A stretch of DNA of 64,000 nucleotides from a virus. Both the position numbers and the translations under genes were made by a program. The stretch spans positions 1 to 64,000 of IMG/VR virus record IMGVR_UViG_3300010883_000017. The stretch is one strand, 5' to 3'. Of this stretch, positions 6,320-61,960 are shown piece by piece (the first letter of the stretch is position 1; each line of letters begins with the position of its first letter). A model generated the notes under the pieces. The model saw only the letters and a list, made by a program, of their open reading frames with translations. It was not told the origin of the DNA and searched no databases.

Positions 6320-6579
6320 TGACATTAACACGAAGCACGCCTATTTGCGTGAAATGTAAAGTGATTATGAAGTGTCACAAAAATGCTCAATTTGTACAGG
6401 ACCCGACTGTTGGCGGGTTTCCGAGCACAGTTTGGAGTGGGGATGTCTGGAAATGTCCAGGCTGCTCGTGTAAGGTTGTAACTGGTTTCGGGTCGGCTAT
6501 CGTTAACGGTGTTGGCTCAGTTGATGTTTTAGAATTTAAGTGGGACCTCAAAAGTCCCAACGAAAACGAAGGAGAGTAG
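6319..6579 (+). CDS. small zinc-ribbon protein
   Basis: CVKC...WKCPGC. Confidence 0.6.
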   Translation: MTLTRSTPICVKCKVIMKCHKNAQFVQDPTVGGFPSTVWSGDVWKCPGCSCKVVTGFGSAIVNGVGSVDVLEFKWDLKSPNENEGE

Positions 6580-6583
6580 CAGA

Positions 6584-6784
6584 GTGGAAAACGGAACGAT
6601 TAAAAAACTGACGGATCGAGGCTTTGGATTTATCAAGACTGCAGCTGGCACGGAAATTTTCTTCCACGCCTCCAGTCTTGACTGCGCGTTTGAAGCGCTT
6701 AGCGAAGGTCAAGAAGTACAGCTAGAGTACGAAGACGGAGAAAAAGGCCCACGAGCAACATCTGTTGTATCTGGAACCTGTTAA
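6584..6784 (+). CDS. cold-shock domain protein (CspA family)
   Basis: RNP motifs RGFGFI and IFFHAS; GQEV...GEKGPRA. Confidence 0.93.
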   Translation: MENGTIKKLTDRGFGFIKTAAGTEIFFHASSLDCAFEALSEGQEVQLEYEDGEKGPRATSVVSGTC

Positions 6785-10158: not shown

Positions 10159-10750
10159 GCGCCCTAAGTCAGCGCGCCTGCATAGCTTGTTACAGGAGTT
10201 GGATATCAAATCCTGGGACGTGCTCTTAATAGGGGATGGTTCCGGCAGCGGCTGGGATATCGGGGTTGGTTGGTCGTGCGTAGTGATAGATCGATATACG
10301 AAGTCTCGGAAGCTAATACACGGCGGCGGTAGTACAGGAACTGTAAATATCGCGGAGCTGATGGCCTACGTGCACGCCATGCTTTGGTACTCTACCCACA
10401 TAGGCCGTGAGCTGCGCAAGCAATACCCTCGCAAGATTCTCAATATTCATGTAATCACGGATTCCCGTGTTATTGTGACCCAGGGCAAGAAGGTTGCAGA
10501 ACGGAACACAGAAGGGCTGGCTAACCGCGCGTTGTGGGCATCCATCAGCGATATCGCCCGCCAGGGTTACACATTCCACTGGCATTGGATCGCGCGGCTC
10601 ACTAATGAATTGAACTGGGCGGCCGATCAGATGGCAGGCTCAGCCAGAAAAGCTGTAAAAAATTGCATGCTTACTGAGGACGTGCCGGATGAGAACGGCA
10701 AGTATACGGGGGTGTCGATATACGACATCAACCCACTAATTAAAAAATGA
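10145..10750 (+). CDS. rnhA: ribonuclease HI
   Basis: Catalytic pattern IGDGS...VNIAEL...ITDS...NRALW...WHWI...N..AD; start uncertain (track ORF begins 10079). Confidence 0.82.
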   Translation: MKKSKRPKSARLHSLLQELDIKSWDVLLIGDGSGSGWDIGVGWSCVVIDRYTKSRKLIHGGGSTGTVNIAELMAYVHAMLWYSTHIGRELRKQYPRKILNIHVITDSRVIVTQGKKVAERNTEGLANRALWASISDIARQGYTFHWHWIARLTNELNWAADQMAGSARKAVKNCMLTEDVPDENGKYTGVSIYDINPLIKK

Positions 10751-10868
10751 CCAAAGGTTAGCGAAGAATAGCAAAGTGAGGTTGCGGCTAGTTATGCGTG
10801 GGTGTGAAATTTCGTGCATTGTTTAGCAAGTGCCCCCGTTATGTAGAAATATATACCGGGGGATTTTT
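10749..10868 (+). ncRNA. detached array unit U0 (pentamer tract + GAAA hairpin + U-tract)
   Basis: 10754-10828 reads aaggt tagcg aagaa tagca aagtg aggtt gcggc tagtt atgcg tgggt gtgaa atttc gtgca ttgtt tagca (G at position 3 in 14/15), then cccccgttatgta-GAAA-tatataccggggg-attttt-aatccaag, matching the array repeat. Confidence 0.8.
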
Positions 10869-10932
10869 AATCCAAGTGCAGTGAAGAGAGACTAGAAGTG
10901 CAAATCCAAGTAACACAAGGCAAAGTAGGACA

Positions 10933-11481
10933 ATGAATATCTGCCATGAGCACGAGTTCATACTATGGGCACACCCGAGAACCGCAGCGCGTTTTGTATA
11001 TTCTGCGCTGCGGAACCGCGGAAGCATGGGTCCTCTCACGCATCGAACCGGTGTTCCGATAGACGGCGCTGGTTACAGTGTTGTTTGCACGGTGCGCAAT
11101 CCCTATACGCGAATGCTATCTGCGTGGAAGTGGACGAATGCGGTGGGAAAGCAGCGGTACTCGCCGGAGAGTTTTACGGAGTTTGTAAGAAAGCACACGC
11201 CGTTATGGGGGTTACCGCCGATTTCAAAGGACCTGGGCCACAAGTTGAAGATGGTCAAATACTTTGTGCGCACAGAGTCGATTGAGAAAGACTTACGCGC
11301 ACTCCCCTGGGTTCCGGACACACATTCGTTCCCCAAGAATACGTACTGTAGTAATTATAAGGGCTACACTCCGACCGCTTTGTATGACGAAGAAGCACAA
11401 GAGAAAGTTCGCCGGTTGTATTGCGGAGATTTTGCAGAGTTCGGATACGATCCAGATGTGATTCCCGCAACGTTTTATTAA
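10933..11481 (+). CDS. sulfotransferase family 2 protein
   Basis: HPRTA, VRNPYTRMLSAW, FVRTESIEKDL, LY..D...FGY. Confidence 0.8.
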   Translation: MNICHEHEFILWAHPRTAARFVYSALRNRGSMGPLTHRTGVPIDGAGYSVVCTVRNPYTRMLSAWKWTNAVGKQRYSPESFTEFVRKHTPLWGLPPISKDLGHKLKMVKYFVRTESIEKDLRALPWVPDTHSFPKNTYCSNYKGYTPTALYDEEAQEKVRRLYCGDFAEFGYDPDVIPATFY

Positions 11482-11494
11482 CGAAAGAAGGACA

Positions 11495-11755
11495 ATGAGA
11501 GTAACGGAGATTTCTGTAGAAGTAGGCAGAACTGCCACCATTAATTACCAGAGCGCGCGCAACTCAGTTGGTCTTACAGCCACCCTAGCGGCTGATGACC
11601 ACGCGCCTACCGCGATCCGCTCGTTACAAAAGCAAGCCGTAGATATGCTTCTAGGTGACAACGAACAATTTCGGGACGCCGAAAATGTGACTTCTGTGGA
11701 TGCGGAGAGCCTAGATGCGGCTATTCGTGCAGGGGCGGAGTCTCGCGAACACTGA
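11495..11755 (+). CDS. hypothetical protein
   Basis: AAGGA RBS, compact ORF. Confidence 0.6.
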   Translation: MRVTEISVEVGRTATINYQSARNSVGLTATLAADDHAPTAIRSLQKQAVDMLLGDNEQFRDAENVTSVDAESLDAAIRAGAESREH

Positions 11756-11796
11756 TTTACCGTGGGTAACGGGCAAATACTTTGTTATCCATAACA

Positions 11797-12810
11797 GGAT
11801 TTTTGATCTAAGTCGTGCCCCGTAGTGTGGAGAGGATCTAAGAGGACTACCGCCGACAACAGGAAGTACGGTATGCATCCTTGGCGTGCAGAAATGTGCG
11901 CCAGGGGTTTTTTGATCTAAGGCCAGTCTTGAGGAACGAAGTTCGGGAAAGTCTCGATGAGTTTACTTGTGTACTGCCAATTTTAGTTCGCAATAGTGAT
12001 GGAAAGCGGTGCGGATTTTAGCGCGGCGTAGTACAGTGCCCCCGCCATGTGGAAACGCGTGGCGGGGGATTTTTGATCCAAGGGAAGAGGCGCAAAGGGG
12101 TACCAAGTTGAGCTCCGCATACAAACGCTTAGAACTCGGCAGTACAGCGAGGGATAGCGCTGCGCAGCGATGCGTAGACTAATGTAAGTAAGCATCCCTG
12201 TCGTATGGAAACATGCGCCAGGGATTTTTTGATCTAAGAAATAGCAAAGCAGCGTACGGGCATGATCACTCATAACAAGTCGAGCGCACTCTAGGTGTGT
12301 GCGGTATACAAGAGTAACAGCCCCCGTCATGTAGAAATGTGTGACGGGGGATTTTTGATCTAAGCCGGGTAGGGTAGAGGGATGCTCGGTAAATACCAGC
12401 CGGGACAAGTGTGGCCGTCAAGTGCGGGCTCAGTTAAGTTAGCGCTTCCGTCGTGCAGAAATGTGTGGCGGGGGATTTTTGATCCTAGGAAAGAGCCGTT
12501 GTGGCAAGTGGAGAGGAGCCCAGACCAGCATCGTATAGTAGCGCTCGGTCAAGCTCGGGATACCTTAGCCCGCGTAATCAGAGATGGTTGCGCGGGTATT
12601 TTTGGCCCCGTTCGTCTAGTGGACTAGGACACCGGCTTCTCAAGCCGGGAACAGGAGTTCAATTCTCCTACGGGGTACATTTTGATCCAAGTGGAGTCGA
12701 TATTACCGGTGTATAGGGGAGGCTAGTCCTGCAACGAGCAGTTCTGCGTCGCTCAGATAACCAGACTAGTGGGCCCGGGCGTTCGTTACGGGCGCTCGGG
12801 CTCATTTATT
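11797..12810 (+). repeat. tandem non-coding RNA array of 7 units: GATCYAAG + (AGY-NN)n tract + hairpin + U-tract
   Basis: Unit starts (GATCYAAG/GATCCTAG) at 11805, 11914, 12075, 12231, 12357, 12481, 12684. GNRA hairpins begin near 11879, 12039, 12195, 12321, 12445, 12568, with G-U pairs and compensatory changes; the last unit ends in a different GC hairpin (12771-12803). Tracts differ between units but are 5-nt periodic. Confidence 0.92.
12605..12677 (+). tRNA. tRNA-Glu (anticodon CUC), embedded in the array
   Basis: Acceptor gccccgt/acggggt, D arm gtctagtggactaggac, anticodon arm ccggc-ttCTCaa-gccgg, T arm aggag-ttcaatt-ctcct; no complete CCA encoded. Confidence 0.9.
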
Positions 12811-12812
12811 AC

Positions 12813-13889
12813 GTGGCAAACTGGGTTCAAATAGGGAATGTAAATATGAAAAGCAGGAAGAAAAAAGTTAAGCAAAATACAAAGCGAAACGCGCCGAAAA
12901 CATCAGTTTTGCGCCGCAAGAATACACGTTTAATGAGCAGGACTTCCGGAGGACGGCAGTCAGTTGTCGAAGCGCGTCTTGATAAAAAGGCCGATACAAT
13001 TTTGGCCAAAGCAAAAATCATCAAGATAGCTGCGCAACCAACAAAGGTGTACCGCACTGTGAAAATTGACGATCTCCAGATCGACAACTCTTATCAGCGT
13101 CCGCTGAAAGAAGGTCATATTGCTGACATCATGATGTACTTCAATTGGGAGGGCTTCGGCACACCAGTTATAGGACGCCGTACTGGTGGCGGGCTATGGT
13201 TAATTGACGGGCAGCAGCGGATTACCGCAGCGCAGCGCTTGGGTGCTACCAGCGTTGGCGCAGAGATCCGCGATTCTGTAGGGCCCAAATATGAAGCAAG
13301 TCTGTTTCATTTGTTGAACTCAACGAGCGTCGTCCCGACGAAGATGCAGATCTTCCGCGCGGCATTGCGCGCGGGTAATAAGAACGCCGTTGCTATCAAT
13401 AAAGCAGTTAAAGAGGCGGGATTTCAAATCCATTTGAATGCGGTCAATTATAGCGGCAGCGAGTGGCCGTATATTCGAGCACTCAGTCGTTTAGAAAAGC
13501 TGTTTAAGTACGGCGGCGTACAATTTCTTACGGAGGTGCTCTCGATAATTAGTGAGACGTGGCCGGAAGAAGATGACGCAGTTCGCGAGGACGTTATCGG
13601 TGGAATGCACCGGTTTATTCGTTTTACTCGGTACAGTGATCCGCGCCCCAAGGGCTGGTTGCACGAGCTCATGCCCACAAGGGGGATGACGCGCCGCGAT
13701 CGTATCGTAGAGGCGATTACGCAGAAGGGTCTGACTGCTGCAGGCTTACATAACAAAGCTGCGAACAGCAAGGAATCGGCGTCTGGCTACAGCCGCGCCG
13801 AAGCTGTGCAGCGTATCTTGGACGAGACGTGCAGGTTTAATAGCCGCCGTAGAACGCCTAAAAGTACCGCTGCCGACGACATGGTTTAA
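12813..13889 (+). CDS. ParB/DGQHR-like (DUF6551-type) protein
   Basis: LQIDNSYQRPL ... LWLIDGQQRITAA ... EASLF..LN; the real start may be ATG 12846. Confidence 0.7.
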   Translation: MANWVQIGNVNMKSRKKKVKQNTKRNAPKTSVLRRKNTRLMSRTSGGRQSVVEARLDKKADTILAKAKIIKIAAQPTKVYRTVKIDDLQIDNSYQRPLKEGHIADIMMYFNWEGFGTPVIGRRTGGGLWLIDGQQRITAAQRLGATSVGAEIRDSVGPKYEASLFHLLNSTSVVPTKMQIFRAALRAGNKNAVAINKAVKEAGFQIHLNAVNYSGSEWPYIRALSRLEKLFKYGGVQFLTEVLSIISETWPEEDDAVREDVIGGMHRFIRFTRYSDPRPKGWLHELMPTRGMTRRDRIVEAITQKGLTAAGLHNKAANSKESASGYSRAEAVQRILDETCRFNSRRRTPKSTAADDMV

Positions 13890-13902: not shown

Positions 13903-14018
13903 GCCCCCACACACACACTTTGCGTGTGTGCGGGGGTTGTTTACTGCTCTGTGCTGCTGCGCGATACAAAGCGGAGCTGGGTCAAGCGGAGAAATGCCCG
14001 GGCCAGCATAGCAGAGTT
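13903..14018 (+). promoter_or_regulatory. hairpin plus pentamer-periodic tract in the leader of the RAMP-like gene
   Basis: ccccc...ggggg hairpin at 13903-13937, then 13944-14018 ctgct ctgtg ctgct gcgcg ataca aagcg gagct gggtc aagcg gagaa atgcc cgggc cagca tagca gagtt (G at position 3 in 14/15). Confidence 0.75.
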
Positions 14019-14051: not shown

Positions 14052-14846
14052 ATGCCAACCACAAAAAAGGCCCCTAAAAAGGCCACTAAAAAGAGAGGCG
14101 TTAAAGGAAATATGTCTGCGATGTTAGCAGAGATGCCAGACGACGCGCTTGCTACCATAGAAAAAGAGGGGGGAGACCTTCTCGACCTGGAGCTTATTGA
14201 GTTTCACTGGTTGGAGTGTGAAATCATCGGATCAAGTCCTTTGGTTACTAATCGGTTCTCTGATGAGTCTTTGGATGCGATCGAGGGTAATCAGACCCAA
14301 GGAGCAACTGGTAAGAAGCTTAAGAAGCCCCCGCGACAACCTGAGAAGGAGTTTATGCAGGCTGCGCATATATGTAAGGGGAAAGCAGATCCTGCGCACC
14401 TTGAGAAGAACATCTATGGATTTCCCGCTGTCGCTTTGAAAAAGGCCATGGCTAACGGGAACTACAGATACGGAGGCGCGAAGGATAAGGTGTCGCAGAT
14501 GGGCGCATTTCATGTGCACGGCCCCTGGCACGGGCTGATCGAGGTGCAGGGGCTTGATGACAAGCCGTGTATCCCCTCGATGGGACGTGATATGGTCCAG
14601 CTTCCTAAGGGGCAGATTGCGTCTATCGCGTATAGACCATACTACTTCCCGTGGAAGATGAGCGTATTTATCCGGTATTGTCCGACCTTGATGTCCAAGG
14701 ACGAGCTGATTCACGCCCTGTATATCGCAGGCAATTGCATCGGCATTGGTTCTTGGCGCACGGAAAAGAGCGGGGACAAGGGCTCGTTCGACGTCGGTGA
14801 TATCAAGTACCACGGAAAAAACTTCCAAGCACCTCTGTGCTCGTAA
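14052..14846 (+). CDS. stand-alone RAMP / Cas7(Csm3)-like RNA-binding protein
   Basis: GGAGG RBS before ATG 14052; beta1 ECEIIGSSPLV, YGFPAVALKKAM (cf. Csm3 PYIPGSSLKG), C-terminal G-rich loop GIGSWRTEKSGDKGSFDV. Confidence 0.72.
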   Translation: MPTTKKAPKKATKKRGVKGNMSAMLAEMPDDALATIEKEGGDLLDLELIEFHWLECEIIGSSPLVTNRFSDESLDAIEGNQTQGATGKKLKKPPRQPEKEFMQAAHICKGKADPAHLEKNIYGFPAVALKKAMANGNYRYGGAKDKVSQMGAFHVHGPWHGLIEVQGLDDKPCIPSMGRDMVQLPKGQIASIAYRPYYFPWKMSVFIRYCPTLMSKDELIHALYIAGNCIGIGSWRTEKSGDKGSFDVGDIKYHGKNFQAPLCS

Positions 14847-16085: not shown

Positions 16086-16682
16086 ATGGCGACCACGGAA
16101 ACGGCACAAACCCCGGCGCTAGCCACGCCAGTTGAAGTTCGATTTAGAGCTGCAACAGGTTCGCGCTTTAATAAAGCAGATGCTGAACGAATTGGGCCCG
16201 AACTACTGCGGCTGAAGAAGCACCACGGAGTTCTTACCAAGGATCTACTTGTACAAAAGGCGCAGAGCGCCCGCTCGATCTTGCATGCTGATTTTAATTG
16301 GGATGACGCAACAGCTGCGCATGCCCACCGATTGGAGCAAGCACGTTACATACTGCGGTCCATCATGATTGTGTGGGATGAGAGCACACCTGATGGCGGT
16401 GTCGAGCAGGTGTCTACGCGCTTGTTCCACAGTGTCCGCGTGAACAGCGATGATGAGGATGCCCCAACAAACCGCGGTACCCGCAGTCAACGCGTACACG
16501 TCACGTTTCGAGATGTGGTTGAGAACCCGGAATACGCTCAACAGGTCATCGATTCTATGGAACGAGCAGTAGTGCGGTTGGATGCACGATTTCGGTTTTA
16601 TTTGGATAAAGTTCCAATGTTTGCCGAAAGGTACCAGGGACTTTTTGACGAGATTACCGCCTTGGAAGATAACATAGACTAG
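16086..16682 (+). CDS. conserved phage protein (LH..F.WDD..AA..HRL.QAR family)
   Basis: AAGGAGG RBS; motif IG.EL..L....G.LT...LV..A....S.LH..FNWDD..AA.AHRLEQAR.I.RSI. Confidence 0.7.
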   Translation: MATTETAQTPALATPVEVRFRAATGSRFNKADAERIGPELLRLKKHHGVLTKDLLVQKAQSARSILHADFNWDDATAAHAHRLEQARYILRSIMIVWDESTPDGGVEQVSTRLFHSVRVNSDDEDAPTNRGTRSQRVHVTFRDVVENPEYAQQVIDSMERAVVRLDARFRFYLDKVPMFAERYQGLFDEITALEDNID

Positions 16683-19932: not shown

Positions 19933-20706
19933 GTGATTAATTGGTCAGACTGGGTGGCGCGGGAGTATAACGTGTATCCCATGGTCACTGGCCAGAAGAC
20001 GCGTTGGATCGAAGCTCCCAGCGAGGAACTTAAAGAGATACAGCGTTTGCTGCTGGATACCTTGTTATACAAGCTTGAACCGACAGAGTATGCGCATGGG
20101 TTTGTACCCGGCCGCTCGATCGTTACTAACGCCAGCTGTCATGTTGGCAAGAAGTGGGTACTTACAGCGGATATCAAGAACTTCTTTCCCTCGGTGACGA
20201 AAGCCCAGGTTATTGATGTGCTTGCGCCGTTGGAGCTCGCGCCGGAGCGCCAGGCTATCATCGTGGAGCTAGCGACTCTGCGCGGGCATCTACCGCAAGG
20301 AGCCCCGACCAGCCCGCATTTGGCTAACCTGGTTGCAGGGTGGTTGGACATTAGATTGGCAGCAATGTGTCGCCGTGACGTTATTACGTATACGCGATAC
20401 GCTGATGATTTAGCTTTTTCTGGTTATGAGGGTAGCCCACATTGGATGCTATCCGTTATTGAGCGCACAGTTGCTGAATGCGGCTTTCAGCTGGCTCGTG
20501 ATAAAACTCATATCATGACTGCTAACCAGCGACAGATGGTTACTGGGTTAGTTGTTAATGAAAAGGTAGCGCTACCTAAAGGTAAGCGGCGTATACTACG
20601 TGCTATGTTGCACAGGTTGCATTGCAGCGAGGTCGTTGACCTGGAGCAGCTTAAGAAAGTACAGGGCCATGTGGCAATGGCGAGATTGGTTGAAACAGGG
20701 GGATGA
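19933..20706 (+). CDS. retron-type reverse transcriptase
   Basis: R.IEAP..ELK.IQR, AHGF..GRSIVTNASCH (retron NAxxH), DIKNFFPS, LPQGAPTSP.LANL, YTRYADD, VTGLVVN (retron VTG). Confidence 0.92.
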   Translation: MINWSDWVAREYNVYPMVTGQKTRWIEAPSEELKEIQRLLLDTLLYKLEPTEYAHGFVPGRSIVTNASCHVGKKWVLTADIKNFFPSVTKAQVIDVLAPLELAPERQAIIVELATLRGHLPQGAPTSPHLANLVAGWLDIRLAAMCRRDVITYTRYADDLAFSGYEGSPHWMLSVIERTVAECGFQLARDKTHIMTANQRQMVTGLVVNEKVALPKGKRRILRAMLHRLHCSEVVDLEQLKKVQGHVAMARLVETGG

Positions 20707-25303: not shown

Positions 25304-26311
25304 ATGAGGATTTTAGTTACTGGAGCCACGGGCTTTATTGGTAGCGCGTTTGTTCGTAGTTTTTGGAATAGACTGGCTGCTGAGGATAGTGTTGCGAGAG
25401 AGCATACGGTTGTGGGCTTTGCGCGCAACACTGTGATGAAGAATCAGCGGCGGTTACCTAGGCCGGCAGGCCCTGGTGAGCTCCCCGGGGAGAGACCAGT
25501 TCCAGATCAATTTGAGTTGATATACGGAGATCTCCTGGGAGATATCTCCGGCATCTGCGAGAAGGTAGACGCTGTTGTTCATTTTGCAGCGAGAACCTTT
25601 GTTGATCACGCGATTAAAGATTCTCAACCGTTTGTTGAGAACAACGTGATCGGTACGCTGCGTCTTCTTGAGGATGCGCGCAGAAATGGTGTGAAACGTT
25701 GGATTCAAATTAGTACTGATGAAGTGTACGGGTCCATACTGGAAGGGGCGTATTCGGAGAACTCTCCGGTTAACCCCACTAATCCGTACTCTGCGAGTAA
25801 GCTAGGTGCGGATGCCCTGGTTATTTCTTACGCACATACCCATGGGATGAACACCAGCGTGATACGGACCGAAAACAATTATGGTCCTTACCAGCACGTT
25901 CAAAAAGCGCTTCCGACGTTTACTAAAGCAGCGCTTAGTGACGAAAAACTTCCCGTGTATGGGGATGGATTACATGTACGGCAGTGGCTCCATGTAGATG
26001 ACCACGTACGTGCAATTTGGATGCTATTACACGCTGAGGTTGAGCCTGGTCAAATTTGGCATGTTGCAGGCTGCCAAGAGCTCACTAATAATGAGCTGGC
26101 CGAGATTATTTTGGGCGCGTGTGATAAGCCTGTGGACAGGATCAAATATATTGACGACCACGATATACGCCCGGGGCACGATCGCCGTTACGCGCTTGTG
26201 TGTGACAAGATGAAGAACGAGATCGGGTGGGAGCCTGAGATCGGACTTCAAGAGGGTCTTCGTGATACCGTTCATTGGTATCGGGATAATCGTTGGTGGT
26301 TAGACTGGTAG
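25304..26311 (+). CDS. rmlB: dTDP-glucose 4,6-dehydratase
   Basis: VTGATGFIGS, VHFAA..FVD, ISTDEVYGS, PYSASK, NNYGPYQ, RPGHDRRYA. Confidence 0.94.
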   Translation: MRILVTGATGFIGSAFVRSFWNRLAAEDSVAREHTVVGFARNTVMKNQRRLPRPAGPGELPGERPVPDQFELIYGDLLGDISGICEKVDAVVHFAARTFVDHAIKDSQPFVENNVIGTLRLLEDARRNGVKRWIQISTDEVYGSILEGAYSENSPVNPTNPYSASKLGADALVISYAHTHGMNTSVIRTENNYGPYQHVQKALPTFTKAALSDEKLPVYGDGLHVRQWLHVDDHVRAIWMLLHAEVEPGQIWHVAGCQELTNNELAEIILGACDKPVDRIKYIDDHDIRPGHDRRYALVCDKMKNEIGWEPEIGLQEGLRDTVHWYRDNRWWLDW

Positions 26312-26318
26312 AAAGAGT

Positions 26319-27323
26319 ATGGCTTATGATGCGGAGTTTAGGGCTGAATTTGTTCCGGGGCGGTATCGCGATGTGGTGGCGCGCGAGGCGGTACTGTACC
26401 CGGTAGTTAATTTTGATAGGCGTGGTCGCCATACAGATTCTCGGATTATTTCCGCTACGAAGACGGCGGTCAGTATGTGGCGCGCTCGCGTCCTGGAACT
26501 ACGCGATCATGGGTGGATAACTGCGCAAGGTGCCCGCCTACCGGCCACGCTGGCGTCGACTGGCGGGGGCCCTGTTGATTACATGCGAAATTGCCGCCCT
26601 AATTTCGTTTCTATGTACCCCCGAACGCGCCCCTGTAAGGCTTGGCACGCTTGCCCTTTTTGCTGGGCCCGCATGGTACAGGGCATTTATGACAGGGTAG
26701 ATGCTGCGTTTCCTGACACATCCTTAGTTGTTGATGACGTACCGGGCAGATCCGGCACGTCTACAGATGGCGAGGTTAACTCCGGAGTACTGGCTGCTGG
26801 GGAGCGGAAGCGGCGCTCCATTGTGATGAATATGGACGATGTGCGGGTTGCTGCTGATGGTAAGCGTCGTCGAATGAGTTCGCTTTCTTCGCGCGATTTC
26901 CCGTATCACATGGTTACTGTTTGTATGCGGAGCGCTTACTCCGCGCGGGAGAGTCTTCCTAACTTGGTTGATAGCTTTTGCAATTCCCGAGGACGTATAC
27001 GTGCAATCCCGTTTACGGGGGCGTCGGTCCTTACAACCGTGGAATACAGAACTAATCAGTGGCATTTGTCACATAGGTACTTACTCATGCTTCCGCCGGA
27101 TGTTGACGTGCCGCTGTCATTTTCAGAGGCACCAGGGTATCGCCGACTCGAGCAACCTACTCGGCGATTAGTAATGGAAGCTGTTGCACGAACCTGTAAG
27201 TATCCTCGTGCTTTGTTGGTAGGGGATCCGCAGTATTACGTTAGAATTCTTCATGCGATCAATGGCAGGCGTCTTCGTGCGTTGTACGGCTGCTTTAGAA
27301 ACACGAGGCAATATGGACAATAG
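26319..27323 (+). CDS. hypothetical protein
   Basis: 334-aa ORF in the operon; C.....CPFC motif. Confidence 0.55.
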   Translation: MAYDAEFRAEFVPGRYRDVVAREAVLYPVVNFDRRGRHTDSRIISATKTAVSMWRARVLELRDHGWITAQGARLPATLASTGGGPVDYMRNCRPNFVSMYPRTRPCKAWHACPFCWARMVQGIYDRVDAAFPDTSLVVDDVPGRSGTSTDGEVNSGVLAAGERKRRSIVMNMDDVRVAADGKRRRMSSLSSRDFPYHMVTVCMRSAYSARESLPNLVDSFCNSRGRIRAIPFTGASVLTTVEYRTNQWHLSHRYLLMLPPDVDVPLSFSEAPGYRRLEQPTRRLVMEAVARTCKYPRALLVGDPQYYVRILHAINGRRLRALYGCFRNTRQYGQ

Positions 27324-28314
27324 GTTTAATACGGCTGGGCTTTCTTTAAAGCCTTTGTCACAAAGAAAGTCGAAACTCAGTGTTAACGATTTAGTACTTC
27401 CAAAGTTTTTGCATCCGTCGGTGGCTGGGGCGGCCGCGGAGTGCGCTGCTCGCTATCTCGCAGAGAAGATACGCGAGGCAAAAGAGACCGATCGTAAAGT
27501 CATACTTTTCATGGGCGCGCATCTAATTAAGCTGGGGCTCACGCGATACATCACTGATCTTATCTTGAATGGATATATCGATCACGTGGCTACCAACGGG
27601 GCCTGCGCTATTCATGACTTTGAATTGAATACGCACGGAGAGACCAGCGAGGATGTGCAAACGTACATCGATAATGGTCAGTTTGGTCTCTGGGAAGAGA
27701 CATCTAATTTGAATGAGGTTGTCGCGGCGGCGTACCAGGGCGGTATTAATTGCGCCGAGCCTTATTCGCCCGGAGCGGGCCATTCGATCGGGACGTGGTT
27801 ATATCACAACGAGGGCGCGAGCCCGGAAACGTCTATTTTTGCTGCGTGTCATAAAATGAATGTGCCGATAACGGTTCACATTCTTATTGGTGGTGATATA
27901 AATCACTCTCATCCCAACTTTGATGCTGCAGCGTGGGGCGTCTGCTCTTACAATGATTTTCTTATCTTTGCGGAATCCCTTAAAGGACTCCATAAAGGTG
28001 GTGTCTTTTTGAATGTGGGGTCGGCAGTACATGGCCCCGAGATATTCTTGAAAGCATTGAGTATGGTTCGTAATGTCTCTTTATGTGAGCAGTTTACAAC
28101 AGGGGTTTTTGACTTTGCAGATCTTCCGTCATCCTGGCGAGATTTCGAACCACATCCGGCAACCCCGCTATACTATTTTCGCCCATGGAAAACACTGTTG
28201 ATGCGGACGAGCAAGGGCGGCCATAGCGAGTACGTAGGCGGCAACTTTACAAATACGATTCCTTTACTTTGGGGTACGATCAACGGATTAGGAGATTTCG
28301 ATGGCGACAATTGA
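27313..28314 (+). CDS. deoxyhypusine-synthase-like NAD-binding protein
   Basis: MGAHLIKLG, HVATNGA..IHDFE....G.TSEDV...I..G.FG..EET, TVH..IG.DI.H.HP, GGVFLNVGSAV.GPE.FLKAL. Confidence 0.7.
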   Translation: MDNRFNTAGLSLKPLSQRKSKLSVNDLVLPKFLHPSVAGAAAECAARYLAEKIREAKETDRKVILFMGAHLIKLGLTRYITDLILNGYIDHVATNGACAIHDFELNTHGETSEDVQTYIDNGQFGLWEETSNLNEVVAAAYQGGINCAEPYSPGAGHSIGTWLYHNEGASPETSIFAACHKMNVPITVHILIGGDINHSHPNFDAAAWGVCSYNDFLIFAESLKGLHKGGVFLNVGSAVHGPEIFLKALSMVRNVSLCEQFTTGVFDFADLPSSWRDFEPHPATPLYYFRPWKTLLMRTSKGGHSEYVGGNFTNTIPLLWGTINGLGDFDGDN

Positions 28315-28969
28315 CGTTATTAACAAATTGAATCTATCTGACGAGAAGAAGCTGAAGTTACTGGCGCTGTACGTGGATCTTCCTGGCCTGGATGCCAGCT
28401 TCAAAGTGACGAGCCCGAGATCTTGCGATCTCCAGGACTTCATAGACGATGTCTTTAACGAGGACGAGCAACCCGCAGGAACCTGTTGTCCTGCGGGACC
28501 GCCTGGAGAACGCGGCGAGCCTGGCATACCTGATGAGGAAGATATTAAGACGCGGTACGACGAGCTCCTAGAGCCACTAGAGGACCTGGGGTTGGAGTTT
28601 GGGGTCGGCGAGGTGATTCAAGTTGAATCCGCGACCGAGAAGAGCACGGTTGTAAGTATTGATGTACCTAGTGTGCATTTAACAGACTGTATAGAGATTA
28701 TGAAAAAGTCGGGTGACTATGAACTACCGCCGCCTGGTACAACAATTCAGGGGATTGCACATGCTATTATTGGCGAGCCACCAGCTGCGTTTGCCGCGAT
28801 GTTGGTTAGCGCAGAAGGCGGCCCGTTTATCGATGCGTACCTTCAGAAGGATGAGGATATAATTTGTGAGCATAAGCCTATTCGAGATACAGAATTTCTA
28901 GAGAGCCGGGTTCGGATAAGCATGCGGTACGAAGATCGTATGTATGAGTTTGAGCTTACACCAACTTAA
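28301..28969 (+). CDS. acidic hypothetical protein with short collagen-like repeat
   Basis: GPPGERGEPG. Confidence 0.55.
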   Translation: MATIDVINKLNLSDEKKLKLLALYVDLPGLDASFKVTSPRSCDLQDFIDDVFNEDEQPAGTCCPAGPPGERGEPGIPDEEDIKTRYDELLEPLEDLGLEFGVGEVIQVESATEKSTVVSIDVPSVHLTDCIEIMKKSGDYELPPPGTTIQGIAHAIIGEPPAAFAAMLVSAEGGPFIDAYLQKDEDIICEHKPIRDTEFLESRVRISMRYEDRMYEFELTPT

Positions 28970-28986
28970 TAGAAGCAGGGGCACGG

Positions 28987-29211
28987 ATGCCACGGAAACG
29001 AAATTTACAGCACTCGAAAAAACCGCCAGCATGTCCGGATGATATGGACTCGCGGCGGTGCCTTCGTTGTGATGGCTGGTTTTGTTCGGAAGGCGCTGGT
29101 AATCGGCAGTGTTCCAAGTGTTTTGATGACACAATACATGTTAGTAAGCGTTTGCAAATACCGGGCACCACCATTGTGGGCGGGGATGGAATAAGCAGTG
29201 AGGAGTATTAG
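28987..29211 (+). CDS. small zinc-ribbon protein, paralog of 19537-19749
   Basis: CLRC...F.SEG.GNRQC..C. Confidence 0.6.
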   Translation: MPRKRNLQHSKKPPACPDDMDSRRCLRCDGWFCSEGAGNRQCSKCFDDTIHVSKRLQIPGTTIVGGDGISSEEY

Positions 29212-30693
29212 ATGACGAAAGCTTTAGTTATTGGTGACATCATGTTGGATGCCACAATCGAGTGTGAGGTGTCGCGGGTTTCTCCTGAGGCGCCTGTTGT
29301 TATTGGTAGGGAGCGCAACCGAAAAGCGCAGTTGGGCGGGGCGGCTAATGTTGCTGCTAACTTAAAAGCTTTGGGTGTTGATGACGTGTATTTGTACGGC
29401 GTCACCGGGGATGAGGACGACGCGGCGCATGAGGTCGAAGAGTTGTGTAAAGATCTTGGGATCTTTCCCCGCTTTGAGTACAGGACAGCGCAGCGCACCA
29501 CGGTTAAAACCCGGTATGTGGCAGAGGGTCAGCTGATCTTTCGTCACGACGCCGAGCGTCATTCCATTTCTAGCAACTACAAACAACACAGCACAGCCAA
29601 GATCGATGTGACTGAGTATGACGTAATCGTATTTGTGGATTACGACAAAGGGGTGGTCGGCGATTACGACACCTTCAAACTTATTGCTCAGGCTACGGCT
29701 GCTCAGATTCCTGTCGTTGTTGACTGCAAGCCCTGTAATCTTCCGTTCTTTACGGGCGCTACGTTTATTACGCCAAATGAAGCGGAGCTTGCGGAGATGT
29801 GCTTGCTGTATCTTCCGGCGGTTGAGCGTTCGCTTGAACAGGATACGCATGAGCTGGCAGCTGGATTCGGGATTAAATGGGTGGTTTGTACGCGAGGCGG
29901 CGCGGGACTTGATGTCTACTTTGTCGCGCGGGATTATATTCGCAACAGCATAGAACCGCCGACGAGATTTTTGCCGAAGCAAACTCGGCGTGTTTACGAT
30001 GTGACCGGAGCTGGTGATGTAGTTACAGCTGCTTTGGGTAGTGTTTTAGCACGCGAGCGGGCCTGGTCGAAGCTACCACTGGCATCCCAGCCAGCCGTCC
30101 ACGACTCGATGTTTGAGTTTGCAAATACTGCGGCAGGGCTTGCTGTGGAGCAGCCGGGCACTACGGTGGTTGATCTTGATGCAGTTATCACTGCGCAGAC
30201 AGAGGATCGCTTAAGCAGTAAGATCCTCCTAGAGGGCGCCGAGACTGCGGTGGAGGCTCTTCAAGCGGTTGGTAGATGCGTGGTATTTACGAACGGCTGT
30301 TTTGATCTCTTGCACCCTGGTCATGTGCACTTGCTACATGCGGCGAAGAGCGAGGGAGACGCGCTCGTTGTTGCTGTAAACAGTGACGAGTCCGTGCGTG
30401 CCTTAAAAGGAGATAAGCGCCCGGTTCTTCCTCTGCATTTAAGGATGGCCGCATTGGCTTCGTTGGATGTGGTGGATTACGTTGTTCCCTTTGACGAGGA
30501 AACACCGGAAGGCCTAATCCGTAAGCTGAAGCCAGATGTGCTTGTAAAAGGAAAGCACACGACGGATTGTCCACATCAGGATGCTCCTGTGCCAGGCGCA
30601 GATTTCATGGCGGCACGGGGGGCCCGGGTCGTGTTTGTTGACACGATACCAGGCTACAGTACGACGGCTGTTATTGCCGGCGGCACTAGCTAG
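29212..30693 (+). CDS. hldE: bifunctional heptose-7-phosphate kinase / heptose-1-phosphate adenylyltransferase
   Basis: GD.MLD...RVSPEAPV, LGGAANVA, DY.KG, ITPN..E, DVTGAGD, VVFTNGCFDLLHPGH, NSD.SV..LKG..RP, PDVLVKG. Confidence 0.92.
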   Translation: MTKALVIGDIMLDATIECEVSRVSPEAPVVIGRERNRKAQLGGAANVAANLKALGVDDVYLYGVTGDEDDAAHEVEELCKDLGIFPRFEYRTAQRTTVKTRYVAEGQLIFRHDAERHSISSNYKQHSTAKIDVTEYDVIVFVDYDKGVVGDYDTFKLIAQATAAQIPVVVDCKPCNLPFFTGATFITPNEAELAEMCLLYLPAVERSLEQDTHELAAGFGIKWVVCTRGGAGLDVYFVARDYIRNSIEPPTRFLPKQTRRVYDVTGAGDVVTAALGSVLARERAWSKLPLASQPAVHDSMFEFANTAAGLAVEQPGTTVVDLDAVITAQTEDRLSSKILLEGAETAVEALQAVGRCVVFTNGCFDLLHPGHVHLLHAAKSEGDALVVAVNSDESVRALKGDKRPVLPLHLRMAALASLDVVDYVVPFDEETPEGLIRKLKPDVLVKGKHTTDCPHQDAPVPGADFMAARGARVVFVDTIPGYSTTAVIAGGTS

Positions 30694-58076: not shown

Positions 58077-58466
58077 ATGATAGATGAAATGGACGGTGTG
58101 GAAGTTGCGGTGGACGAGCGTCCGCTTTACTACTTAGTGGTGTGTCCGGACACGGGGTCTCCAAGCGTAGAATTTTACGAAACACTAGACGGGCTAGCTA
58201 CTAAGTTGATTGAGCTCCAAGATACTGAAGTTACCGTGATGCCTTTCTGCGGGCGGCGTTTGTATGTGTCAGAAGGTGAGCTGCGGTATCTATTGGACGA
58301 TGGGCACGCAGATCCTATTCCTTTGTTTACAGTCCCGACGCCCAGCGACGGCGACTGGAAGGGGACGGTCCGGTTTGGCGCAGACACGCCCGATCCAGGA
58401 ATCGCACTAGGAACCCCCGCGGATATTGTTGAAGAAGAGTCCGAGGAAGAGGAAGAAGAGGACTAA
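58077..58466 (+). CDS. acidic hypothetical protein
   Basis: ATGA-coupled; last gene before the intergenic hairpins. Confidence 0.55.
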   Translation: MIDEMDGVEVAVDERPLYYLVVCPDTGSPSVEFYETLDGLATKLIELQDTEVTVMPFCGRRLYVSEGELRYLLDDGHADPIPLFTVPTPSDGDWKGTVRFGADTPDPGIALGTPADIVEEESEEEEEED

Positions 58467-61239: not shown

Positions 61240-61960
61240 TGAAGGGTGGTGGTGGGGAATCGGAAACCCGTACCCCTCGCCATCACCCACTTTTATACAA
61301 CTGGCCTCGGAGGGTGTTTCGCCCTCCACGTGAAGAGGTAGTCGGACCAGGTCCTCACACGACCTCGCTCCGCGACGCCGCGCAGGACTTGGTCCTACGA
61401 TCGGCATATTGAAAGCATGGAGGCGCCCTGATTCACCTAACAGTGATGAAGGGCGTCCCTGGTGCTTTCCACCCTACAAGCCCCGGAGAGGTCGCTCCTC
61501 CCACGCTCCGAAAGGCGGGCGTCCGGGCAAAGGCCGAGTGGCGGAACTGGCAGACGCTCAGGACTTAAAATCCTGTGTCCTCACGGACGTGCGGGTTCGA
61601 GTCCCGCCTCGGCTACCATAAACCTCCGGAGAGTGTTTCGCTCTCCACGTGATGGGGGTTTCCCCGGGCCATCCGCTGGTTTCGCTACGCGAAAACGCAG
61701 CTACTGGCCCCGGGGACCAGGTGCGATTGGAGCATAAGGGGTGACGAGCCACAGCTATCGGGACATTAGTCCCGGGACGCCTAGGGTTCGTTGCCCCTAA
61801 ATTGCTCCCTCCCATCACACACGAGGTTTCTGCGCAGCTTGTTCGCTGCGCTCACTGCGCTGCGACGCTGCAGCCGGAGCTGCCGGCCTTCCGCGGCATT
61901 CTAAGCATAAGGGACGGCGGAGTGCCGGGGACAGTCTCCTCGCGCATAAACCGCCGTCCC
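61240..61960 (+). ncRNA. cluster of structured non-coding elements around tRNA-Leu
   Basis: Consecutive long stems (e.g. gaaagca...tgctttc, tccccgggcca...tggccccgggga, ggagca...tgctcc, ggacggcgg...ccgccgtcc) and a duplicated motif with covariation. Confidence 0.55.
61532..61618 (+). tRNA. tRNA-Leu (anticodon UAA)
   Basis: Acceptor ggccgag/ctcggct + A-CCA, D arm gcggaactggcagacgc, anticodon arm cagga-ctTAAaa-tcctg, long variable arm, T arm gcggg-ttcgagt-cccgc. Confidence 0.95.

What the first reader, a model, noticed from the sequence alone, without database searches (positions are those of the whole stretch)
11810..12773. Hidden 5-nt periodicity (AGY-NN) inside the apparently unique spacers
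Seen by cutting each tract into pentamers right after GATCY. G at position 3: U1 8/11, U2 19/24, U3 18/23, U4 11/15 (after a 1-nt slip), U5 11/13, U6 16/17, U7 13/17. Example U6, 12486-12570: tagga aagag ccgtt gtggc aagtg gagag gagcc cagac cagca tcgta tagta gcgct cggtc aagct cggga tacct tagcc. Position 2 is mostly A (11/17 in U6) and position 4 mostly pyrimidine (18/24 in U2). Position 5 and the next position 1 look free. Most pentamers lacking the G keep the A. A period of 5 cannot come from codon structure. Inference: the NN dinucleotides carry the information.
Basis: seen in the sequence. Interest (0 to 1): 0.92.

Follow-up and report, generated by a model that had tools for sequence, protein, structure and literature searches.

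The report
Phage VIPR guide-RNA array, A-G-Y type
The five-base rhythm is real and marks the guide RNAs of a VIPR system, a CRISPR-like DNA silencer carried by phages and first described in 2026 preprints; this copy sits in a marine phage and uses an A-G-Y repeat scaffold instead of G-G-Y.

Summary
In the seven tracts, G fills pentamer position 3 in 88 of 127 cases and A fills position 2 in 70 of 128. The best-phase G count is 96, against 57.3 +/- 2.8 in shuffles (z about 14).

The tracts are vrRNAs of a VIPR system (Vipr RAMP protein, accessory gene, pentamer guide RNAs; bioRxiv 10.64898/2026.04.26.720920). The evidence:
- The 264-aa protein at 14052-14846 folds as a Cas7-type RAMP. Its family profile hits the solved "SUSP1 Vipr protein" (E 1.3e-8).
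- Distant relatives of this protein also sit beside period-5 tracts.
- Read with the published skip-one-base rule, the NN letters of three guides spell motif IV of DNA methyltransferase genes. An 11-NN seed finds at least 119 viral C5-methylase genes with a 1-nt skip and none with a 0- or 2-nt skip.

What differs here:
- The scaffold is A-G-Y. The two residues that read the first G in SUSP1 (His, Asp) are Asn and Ser.
- The partner gene is unrelated to vap1.
- A tRNA sits inside the array.

No full-length natural target was found (best 12 of 16 NN).

This scan has already met VIPR-like arrays on many other genomes. This is a new member of a known kind.

The parts
10751..10876 (+). vrRNA Ua: pentamer tract 10754-10828, tail hairpin 10833-10862, U-run and AATCCAAG junction
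   Evidence: hairpin included in the covariation count
10878..10932 (+). Tail-less pentamer tract Ub (11 pentamers) that ends at the ATG of ORF 10933-11481 (weak sulfotransferase-like match)
11801..11909 (+). vrRNA U1, degenerate, with a second internal GATCTAAG at 11835-11842; tail hairpin 11877-11908
11910..12070 (+). vrRNA U2: 24 pentamers, tail hairpin 12039-12068. The 3' half of its NN string is antisense to V-T-A-N-P-P-F-S-(I/M)-D-K-W, which is N6-methyltransferase motif IV
12071..12226 (+). vrRNA U3: 23 pentamers, target unknown
12227..12352 (+). vrRNA U4: about 16 pentamers, 1-nt register slip after the 5' motif, tail hairpin 12321-12350, target unknown
12353..12476 (+). vrRNA U5: about 16 pentamers, tail hairpin 12445-12474, target unknown
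12477..12604 (+). vrRNA U6: 17 pentamers, tail hairpin 12568-12597 with a GAGA loop. Its NN string is antisense to D-L-I-I-G-G-P-P-C-Q-A-F-(S), which is C5-methyltransferase motif IV
12605..12678 (+). tRNA-Glu (CTC) embedded between U6 and U7
12680..12815 (+). vrRNA U7: 17 pentamers, with its own different 17-bp tail hairpin at about 12768-12808; target unknown
12846..13889 (+). ParB-like / DUF6551 gene (DGQQR motif) between the array and vipr; conserved only in close relatives
13944..14018 (+). Tail-less pentamer tract UL in the leader of vipr (G at position 3 in 14 of 15). Its NN string is antisense to L-I-G-G-F-P-C-Q-P-F-S-Q-A
   Evidence: RNA-library contigs span it together with the vipr start
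14052..14846 (+). vipr: 264-aa minimal RAMP (Cas7-like) with YRP thumb motif, G-loop GIGSWR and a basic N-terminal extension
16086..16682 (+). Conserved partner gene (198 aa, phrog_15946, SPLH..FEWDD..AA motif); candidate vap-type accessory protein

Best explanation
The region is the guide-RNA array of a VIPR (Viral Interference Programmable Repeat) system in an uncultured marine phage. Ten tracts of 11-24 pentamers (N-A-G-Y-N) lie between 10751 and 14020. Eight of them end in a GC-rich hairpin; seven of these hairpins are also followed by a U-run, and U7's is not. Most tracts start with (U)UGAUCYAAG. By homology with the solved SUSP1 system, one protomer of the 264-aa Vipr RAMP (14052-14846) binds each pentamer. 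It buries the A-G-Y scaffold between thumb and G-loop and presents the two free bases. The string of NN dinucleotides pairs with one strand of double-stranded DNA while every third target base is skipped. This places the skipped base on codon wobble positions and silences transcription of the bound gene. Shown here: the periodicity, the RAMP fold and sequence homology to Vipr, the linkage of protein and tracts across distant relatives, the structured tail, and NN strings that fit methyltransferase motif IV only under the 1-nt-skip rule. Inferred from the papers and not tested here: filament assembly, DNA binding, triplex R-loop formation and silencing. The A-G-Y scaffold goes with Asn and Ser at the two positions that read the first G in SUSP1 (His17, Asp177).
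For: Periodicity: z = 13.9, spectral peak at 5.0 nt. Protein: the AF2 model (pLDDT 74) matches only Cas7-family RAMPs such as Cmr4, Csm3, type VII Cas7 and Cas7-11, with Foldseek E 1e-6 to 1e-4. The family profile hits PDB 36pp_D 'SUSP1 Vipr protein' at E 1.3e-8 over the YRP thumb and G-loop. hhalign against the Vipr of Felixounavirus ESCO50 gives probability 96% and E 1.3e-9; that locus carries GGY/NN tracts. Linkage: loci that encode relatives at 27-46% identity hold 53 period-5 G tracts on the gene strand in 204 kb, against 2 in 257 kb of unrelated viral loci. L002 has about 110 pentamers. Tail: 94% of cells are paired and 11 of 13 pairs show compensatory changes; G.U pairs fix the + strand as the RNA strand. 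Code, 1-nt skip: at least 119 viral hits, all in frame on GGFPCQPFS(Q/H)A. Code, 0- and 2-nt skip: none. The U2 seed gives 9 genome hits against about 1 expected, 5 of them on (V/I)ANPPFS(M/I)(D/E)KW. The C5 core pattern G-x-P-C-Q-x-[FW]-S occurs twice in 158 NN and in 0 of 20000 shuffles. Partner gene: present in 19 of 27 loci. No Cas1, Cas5 or Cas6 family in the record. Mechanism and rule.
Against: No natural target matches a whole guide. The best are 12 of 16 NN for UL in 118 sampled viral sites and 14 of 23 for U2. The published target calls use about 0.875 identity or more. Exact full-length patterns for U2 and U6 found nothing. Seven of the ten tracts have no identified target, and the integrase-like reading of Ua found no natural match. 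The partner protein is not homologous to vap1 and has no clear fold match. The VIPR type could not be assigned because the paper's supplementary tables are not held. U1 is only weakly periodic. Two tracts lack a tail.
Confidence: 0.88

Rival explanations
1. Same VIPR machinery, but the methyltransferase-matching guides regulate the phage's own methyltransferase genes, which would lie in the roughly 65% of the genome not on this record. On this view they do not attack a competitor or the host.
For: The record is an estimated 35% of the genome. No target was found in the 73.8 kb held or in related loci. Phage-borne C5 methylases with this motif are very common.
Against: Published natural targets lie in competing satellites, prophages and other VIPR loci. 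A self-regulator would not need to skip wobble bases. The leader tract of close relatives carries a different NN string, as expected of fast-changing guides and not of a fixed regulatory site.
Confidence: 0.08
2. The tracts are protein-binding scaffolds or sponges only: they wrap a multimeric RNA-binding protein as TRAP-binding (G/U)AG repeats do. The NN letters have no pairing role, and the motif readings are coincidence.
For: N-A-G-N-N with 2-nt spacers is formally the TRAP site pattern. Two tail-less tracts lie in mRNA leaders (10878-10932, 13944-14018), where binding could regulate translation.
Against: No TRAP family member is in the record. The linked protein is a Vipr homologue. Two independent tracts spell C5 motif IV, with 0 of 20000 shuffles reaching this. 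Natural matches appear only under the 1-nt skip.
Confidence: 0.03
3. A degenerate CRISPR-like array read by a type III/I-style Cas7 backbone, with contiguous 5+1 pairing to RNA.
For: The protein has a Cas7-like fold. Unit layout of 8-nt 5' motif, variable part and 3' hairpin resembles a processed crRNA.
Against: The period is 5, not 6. The repeats are only 61-82% alike and the units are 109-161 nt. No Cas1, Cas5 or Cas6 was found. The contiguous reading of the NN string finds nothing.
Confidence: 0.01

Closest known systems
Type II VIPR of Escherichia phage SUSP1 and related Felixounaviruses (Vipr + vap1 + GGY/NN vrRNAs; bioRxiv 10.64898/2026.04.26.720920, .720927, 10.64898/2026.10.15.759431)
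   Same: Both are phage-borne. Both have a lone minimal RAMP with a YRP thumb and a G-loop W-R, sequence-homologous over the C-terminal half. Both have arrays of roughly 100-nt RNAs made of pentamers with a 3-nt scaffold and a free NN, and a structured 3' tail. In both, one guide tract lies upstream of vipr. Both use the 1-nt-skip, wobble-aligned reading, with guides falling on catalytic-core codons.
   Different: The scaffold is A-G-Y, not G-G-Y; GGY>AGY is among the scaffold substitutions tested on SUSP1, and perturbing the GGY motif abolished silencing. Here Asn67 and Ser234 replace the G1-reading His17 and Asp177. The protein is 264 aa, against 195-202 aa, and has a basic N-terminal extension. 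Tracts reach 24 repeats, against 9-16. The tail is a simple terminator-like hairpin, not a pseudoknot. The partner gene is unrelated to vap1. A tRNA and a ParB-like gene sit inside the locus. The array lies upstream of vipr.
Alternative VIPR repeat classes (NNNGG, YNNNG, NNNNG) listed in the type-classification methods of 10.64898/2026.04.26.720920
   Same: Written in the paper's register, Y-N-N-A-G falls under YNNNG.
   Different: The text held here gives no base preference at the first scaffold position and no residue code for it. The figures and tables could not be read.
Class 1 CRISPR Cas7 backbone (Csm3/Cmr4/Cas7 on crRNA)
   Same: Shared RRM-thumb-G-loop fold, one protomer per RNA segment, thumb-induced base flipping.
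   Different: CRISPR uses a 6-nt period, contiguous 5-nt pairing, identical repeats, multi-subunit effectors and an adaptation module. None of these is present here.
TRAP-binding RNA ((G/U)AG triplets with 2-3-nt spacers) of Bacillus
   Same: A five-base rhythm of N-A-G plus two free bases that wraps a homo-oligomer.
   Different: There is no TRAP protein. In TRAP sites the free bases carry no information, whereas here they do.

Membership tests
VIPR system | Vipr protein: minimal single-RRM RAMP with thumb and glycine-rich loop, related to characterised Vipr | tested here: met
   The top Foldseek hits listed (E 1e-6 to 3e-4) are all Cas7-family or other CRISPR RAMP subunits. The profile hits 'SUSP1 Vipr protein' 36pp_D at E 1.3e-8. 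hhalign to the ESCO50 Vipr gives probability 96%.
VIPR system | vrRNA: at least 4 tandem pentamers with a conserved 3-nt scaffold containing G and a hypervariable NN | tested here: met
   Ten tracts of 11-24 pentamers. Information sits at positions 2-4 and is about zero at positions 5 and 1.
VIPR system | Scaffold consensus G-G-Y | tested here: not met
   The consensus here is A-G-Y (A 70/128, G 88/127). It falls under the paper's 'related consensus' YNNNG, so this does not exclude membership.
VIPR system | Conserved structured 3' tail after the repeat tract | tested here: met
   A 13-bp hairpin, 94% of cells paired, 11 of 13 pairs with compensatory changes. U7 has a different hairpin. Ub and UL have none.
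VIPR system | Adjacent accessory (vap) gene | tested here: inconclusive
   A 198-aa partner co-occurs in 19 of 27 loci. It is unrelated to vap1 and has no clear fold match.
VIPR system | Targets read by NN with a 1-nt skip, wobble-aligned in coding DNA | tested here: met
   At least 119 hits under the 1-nt skip, against 0 under 0-nt and 0 under 2-nt. All 118 sites that could be read lie in frame on C5 motif IV. The U2 seed falls on N6 motif IV.
VIPR system | A natural target matching a guide at about 87% or more of NN positions | tested here: not met
   The best are 12/16 (UL) and 14/23 (U2). Collection scans take exact patterns only, so near-full matches with scattered mismatches could not be sought.
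VIPR system | vrRNAs expressed and bound by Vipr; dsDNA binding and transcriptional silencing | not testable with these tools
   This needs small-RNA sequencing, pull-down and reporter assays. Contigs from two seawater RNA libraries cover vipr and its leader tract, but this does not show transcription.
CRISPR-Cas class 1 | Array of near-identical direct repeats with 30-40-nt spacers, plus cas1/cas2 or further cas genes | tested here: not met
   The repeats are 61-82% alike and the units 109-161 nt. No Cas1, Cas5 or Cas6 is in the 73.8-kb record.
TRAP / TRAP-binding leader | TrpBP (PF02081) protein together with 9-11 (G/U)AG repeats | tested here: not met
   There is no PF02081 match at E <= 1. 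Tracts reach 24 repeats.

The most novel reading that the evidence does not exclude
The A-G-Y clade is a natural, orthogonal VIPR specificity class. A two-residue switch (His to Asn on beta-1, Asp/Glu to Ser/Ala in the G-loop) re-tunes the protein from G to A at the first scaffold base. Its guide panel is kept on the catalytic motif IV of both C5 and N6 DNA methyltransferases. It would therefore recognise many unrelated methylase genes (restriction-modification, BREX or DISARM type, or rival phages' methylases) at the level of the protein motif, not one particular competitor.
Probability: 0.15. Interest if true: 0.6.

Novelty: new member of a known kind. Interest (0 to 1): 0.35.

Why it matters
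The finding shows that a reader working from raw sequence alone recovered the noncontiguous VIPR code. It adds a marine-phage member with ten guide tracts.

Two points may be useful to specialists.

- **Scaffold and residue switch.** The first scaffold base differs between clades, and so do the two residues that contact it in the SUSP1 structure. Loci with a G-first scaffold have His plus Glu/Asp. Loci with A, T or any base first have Asn/Gln plus Ser/Ala/Cys. This suggests a simple way to build mutually orthogonal Vipr/vrRNA pairs. On the tree it amounts to one evolutionary switch, so it is a hypothesis and not a statistic.
- **Guides on methyltransferase motifs.** Three guides sit on the catalytic motif of DNA methyltransferases. 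This extends the published theme of guides aimed at catalytic-core codons (a satellite recombinase) to another gene class. The owner of the targeted genes is unknown.

Tried and rejected
- **TRAP-like idea.** My first idea was a TRAP-like protein-wrapping RNA. It was dropped after no TrpBP match and after the Vipr homology.
- **Rfam.** Only the tRNA was found.
- **DNA similarity to known phages.** Only the tRNA matched.
- **Repeat-junction 16-mer in viral contigs.** It gave 32 single hits. Only five of those 32 loci held a single short period-5 segment each, at chance level, so they served as controls.
- **Self-targets.** No NN string matches the 73.8-kb record or any fetched locus above shuffles under the 1-nt-skip model.
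- **Full-length exact patterns.** U2 (23 NN) in genome contigs and U6 (16 NN) in viral contigs both gave 0 hits.
- **Integrase box II reading of Ua.** A 10-NN seed gave 0 viral hits, so it is unsupported.
- **U7.** The GHKL (sense) reading was not tested. I could also read an exonuclease-like motif in the antisense direction, which shows that such readings are unreliable without a database test.
- **Position 4 as the third codon base.** It fits about half of the ambiguous codons of U6, so it carries no information.
- **Decoding relatives' tracts.** This gave no motif I could verify.
- **Partner protein.** No Pfam family, no PDB sequence match and no fold match (best RctB domains 2-3, E 0.04).
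- **RNA libraries.** No contig of the two RNA runs covers 10700-12955. Because these are contigs, this says nothing about expression.
- **Decoded peptides.** They could not be searched against protein-family libraries because they have no reference.
- **Weak period-5 segments** at 6400-6495, 58353-58402 and 61334-61398 lie in coding or GC-rich sequence and look like chance.

Full report
**Observation.** The stretch 11801-12800 holds seven units. Each begins with TTTTGATCY(A/T)AG, continues with a tract that looks unique, and ends in a GC-rich hairpin. Six of the hairpins are followed by a U-run; U7's is not. A tRNA-Glu (12605-12678) lies between units 6 and 7.

Cut into pentamers after GATCY, the tracts show N-A-G-Y-N. 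Pooled, G is at position 3 in 88/127 and A at position 2 in 70/128, while positions 5 and 1 are flat. The summed best-phase G count is 96, against 57.3 +/- 2.8 (maximum 69) in 5000 shuffles. The G spectrum peaks at 5.0 nt and at the harmonic 2.5 nt. U2-U6 are individually significant. U1 is degenerate and has a second internal GATCTAAG.

Three further tracts lie outside the stated coordinates:
- 10754-10828, with a tail;
- 10878-10932, without a tail, ending at the ATG of ORF 10933;
- 13944-14018, without a tail, in the leader of ORF 14052.

Rfam knows only the tRNA. ORFs that overlap the array have no family match.

**Context.** The record is an IMG/VR virus contig of 73.8 kb, estimated 35% complete. 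It carries a large terminase. Near-identical sequence turns up in seawater and marine metagenome runs from several studies.

**The protein.** ORF 14052-14846 (264 aa) has no Pfam family and only an unnamed PHROG. It has 14 homologues. An AlphaFold model built on their alignment (pLDDT 74) matches Cas7-family RAMPs such as Cmr4, Csm3, type VII Cas7 and Cas7-11, at E 1e-6 to 1e-4. A profile of the family hits PDB chain 36pp_D, named "SUSP1 Vipr protein", at E 1.3e-8 across the YRP thumb motif and the G-loop. hhalign against the Vipr of Felixounavirus ESCO50 gives probability 96% and E 1.3e-9. That locus shows the textbook GGY/NN tracts.

**Linkage of protein and tracts.** A scan with the family alignment returned 2 viral and 25 metagenomic loci. 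These 204 kb hold 53 period-5 G tracts on the gene strand. The 257 kb of unrelated viral loci hold 2. L002 (29% identity) has about 110 pentamers just downstream of the gene.

The scaffold triplet differs by lineage:
- A-G-Y here;
- A-G-C in L054 and L045;
- T-G-C in L059;
- G-G-A in L049 and L057;
- G-G-T in L052;
- G-G-C in L051;
- G-G-n in L002 and L048.

Close relatives (69-77% identity) are syntenic, with fewer units that begin GATC(A/Y)(A/T)AG.

**What it is.** A look-up of this scan's earlier notes named the class, and I then read the papers. VIPR systems consist of a Vipr RAMP, an accessory vap gene and vrRNAs of alternating GGY/NN pentamers followed by a structured tail. The NN letters specify a double-stranded DNA target in which one base is skipped after every two. 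The skipped base usually falls on the codon wobble position, and binding silences transcription (10.64898/2026.04.26.720920).

Cryo-EM shows one protomer per repeat in a right-handed filament. The scaffold is flipped out and buried, and the gapped RNA-DNA hybrid wraps the non-target strand as a triplex (10.64898/2026.04.26.720927). A third preprint shows a SUSP1 guide on the catalytic-core codons of a satellite recombinase (10.64898/2026.10.15.759431). The methods list alternative repeat classes NNNGG, YNNNG and NNNNG. Y-N-N-A-G belongs to the second.

**Testing the code here.** I took NN as position 5 plus the next position 1, reverse-complemented it and read it as codon positions 1-2.
- U6 is compatible with D-L-I-I-G-G-P-P-C-Q-A-F, followed by S across the 5' junction.
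- The leader tract UL is compatible with L-I-G-G-F-P-C-Q-P-F-S-Q-A.
- The 3' half of U2 is compatible with V-T-A-N-P-P-F-S-(I/M)-D-K-W.

The first two are motif IV of C5 DNA methyltransferases and the third is motif IV of N6 methyltransferases. These identifications rest on established knowledge of those families, and I wrote the PROSITE-style patterns from memory.

In shuffles of the 158 NN, the core G-x-P-C-Q-x-[FW]-S was never seen twice in 20000 trials, whereas it is observed twice. The full C5 pattern has P = 0.00025 and [DN]-P-P-[FYW] has P = 0.04.

Against real DNA:
- A 10-NN seed from U2 gave 9 exact matches in 596 Gb of genomes where about 1 is expected. Five lie on (V/I)ANPPFS(M/I)(D/E)KW, four of them in intact methylase genes and one (L067) with stop codons close by.
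- An 11-NN seed from UL gave at least 119 matches in viral contigs. All 118 sites that could be read are in frame on GGFPCQPFS(Q/H)A.
- The same 22 letters found nothing when written contiguously or with a 2-nt skip.

**Limits on targets.**
- No natural gene matches a whole guide. The best are 12 of 16 for UL and 14 of 23 for U2. Exact full-length patterns found nothing.
- Published target calls use about 0.875 identity or more, so the sampled methylases are not shown to be the real targets.
- Seven tracts have no assigned target.
- The integrase-like reading of Ua found no natural match.
- There is no self-target in the DNA held.
- The leader tract of close relatives carries a different NN string, so tract content turns over as guide content does.

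An earlier check elsewhere in this scan found that the broad "panel against all methylases" reading did not hold on other DNA. I keep it only as a low-probability case.

**RNA features.** The tail hairpin is well supported: 13 pairs, 94% of cells paired, and 11 pairs with compensatory changes across ten copies from this phage and two relatives. G.U pairs fix the + strand as the RNA strand. U7 has a different 17-bp hairpin. The array contains no sigma-70-like promoter (0 found, 3.2 expected) and five terminator-like hairpins. How the units are transcribed or processed is therefore open. The embedded tRNA could supply processing sites, but that is inference.

Contigs from two seawater RNA libraries cover vipr together with its leader tract. 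This does not prove transcription.

**What differs from the studied systems.**

1. *The scaffold.* In SUSP1, G1 is read by His17 and Asp177, G2 by Arg138 and Trp178, and Y3 partly by Arg179. GGY>AGY is among the scaffold substitutions tested on SUSP1, and perturbing the GGY motif abolished silencing. Here the aligned residues are Asn67 and Ser234, while Arg195, Trp235 and Arg236 are kept. Across the loci, every G-first scaffold goes with His plus Glu. Every scaffold with another first base goes with Asn (Gln in L059) plus Ser, Ala or Cys. On the protein tree this is a single split (support 95/93), so it counts as one event, not repeated covariation.
2. *The partner gene.* The gene at 16086-16682 is present in 19 of 27 loci. 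It is not related to vap1 and has no fold match.
3. *Other locus features.* Tracts reach 24 repeats. The array lies upstream of vipr. A ParB-like DUF6551 gene sits between them in the close relatives. The protein has a basic N-terminal extension.

The VIPR type could not be assigned because the supplementary data are not held.

**Verdict.** The class has been in print since April 2026, and this scan has met it on many other genomes. This is a new member of a known kind, with a modestly interesting scaffold variant.

Noticed in passing
window 61290-61660: A GC-rich non-coding stretch around tRNA-Leu(TAA) (61532-61618). Two copies of a roughly 30-nt motif (CCTCGGAGGGTGTTTCGCCCTCCACGTGA-like) flank the tRNA, at about 61306 and 61624.
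   Followed up: no
window 19933-20706: A 257-aa ORF matches PHROG 2825 'polymerase' (E 6e-58) and, more weakly, a reverse-transcriptase PHROG (E 9e-10). This is an unusually small polymerase-like gene a few kb downstream of the VIPR locus.
   Followed up: no
window 13907-13916: The (CA)n arm of the terminator hairpin after the ParB-like gene varies by one CA unit between contigs of two seawater RNA libraries.
   Followed up: partly
window 10878-10932 and 13944-14018: Two pentamer tracts have no tail hairpin and end just before start codons (the sulfotransferase-like ORF 10933 and vipr). Close relatives keep a tail-less tract before vipr with different NN letters. Vipr binding to its own mRNA leader (feedback) is possible but untested.
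   Followed up: partly
window 6584-6784: By eye, this short ORF reads like a cold-shock (CspA-type) domain (GFGFI motif). It was not run against any library.
   Followed up: no
window 25304-30693: A cluster of sugar-nucleotide genes (nucleotide-sugar epimerase, heptose kinase/adenylyltransferase PHROGs), perhaps for DNA or surface sugar modification.
   Followed up: no
L060:2407-2435, L061:7310-7338, L063:2846-2874: Three Acidobacteria genomes share a conserved stretch that matches 12 of 23 NN of guide U2 but has a stop codon close by, so it is not an intact methylase motif. It may be a chance match or a pseudogene.
   Followed up: no
L046:6551-6934: In this distant relative the period-5 G tract lies on the strand opposite to vipr, directly upstream, so the array appears to be transcribed divergently.
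   Followed up: partly
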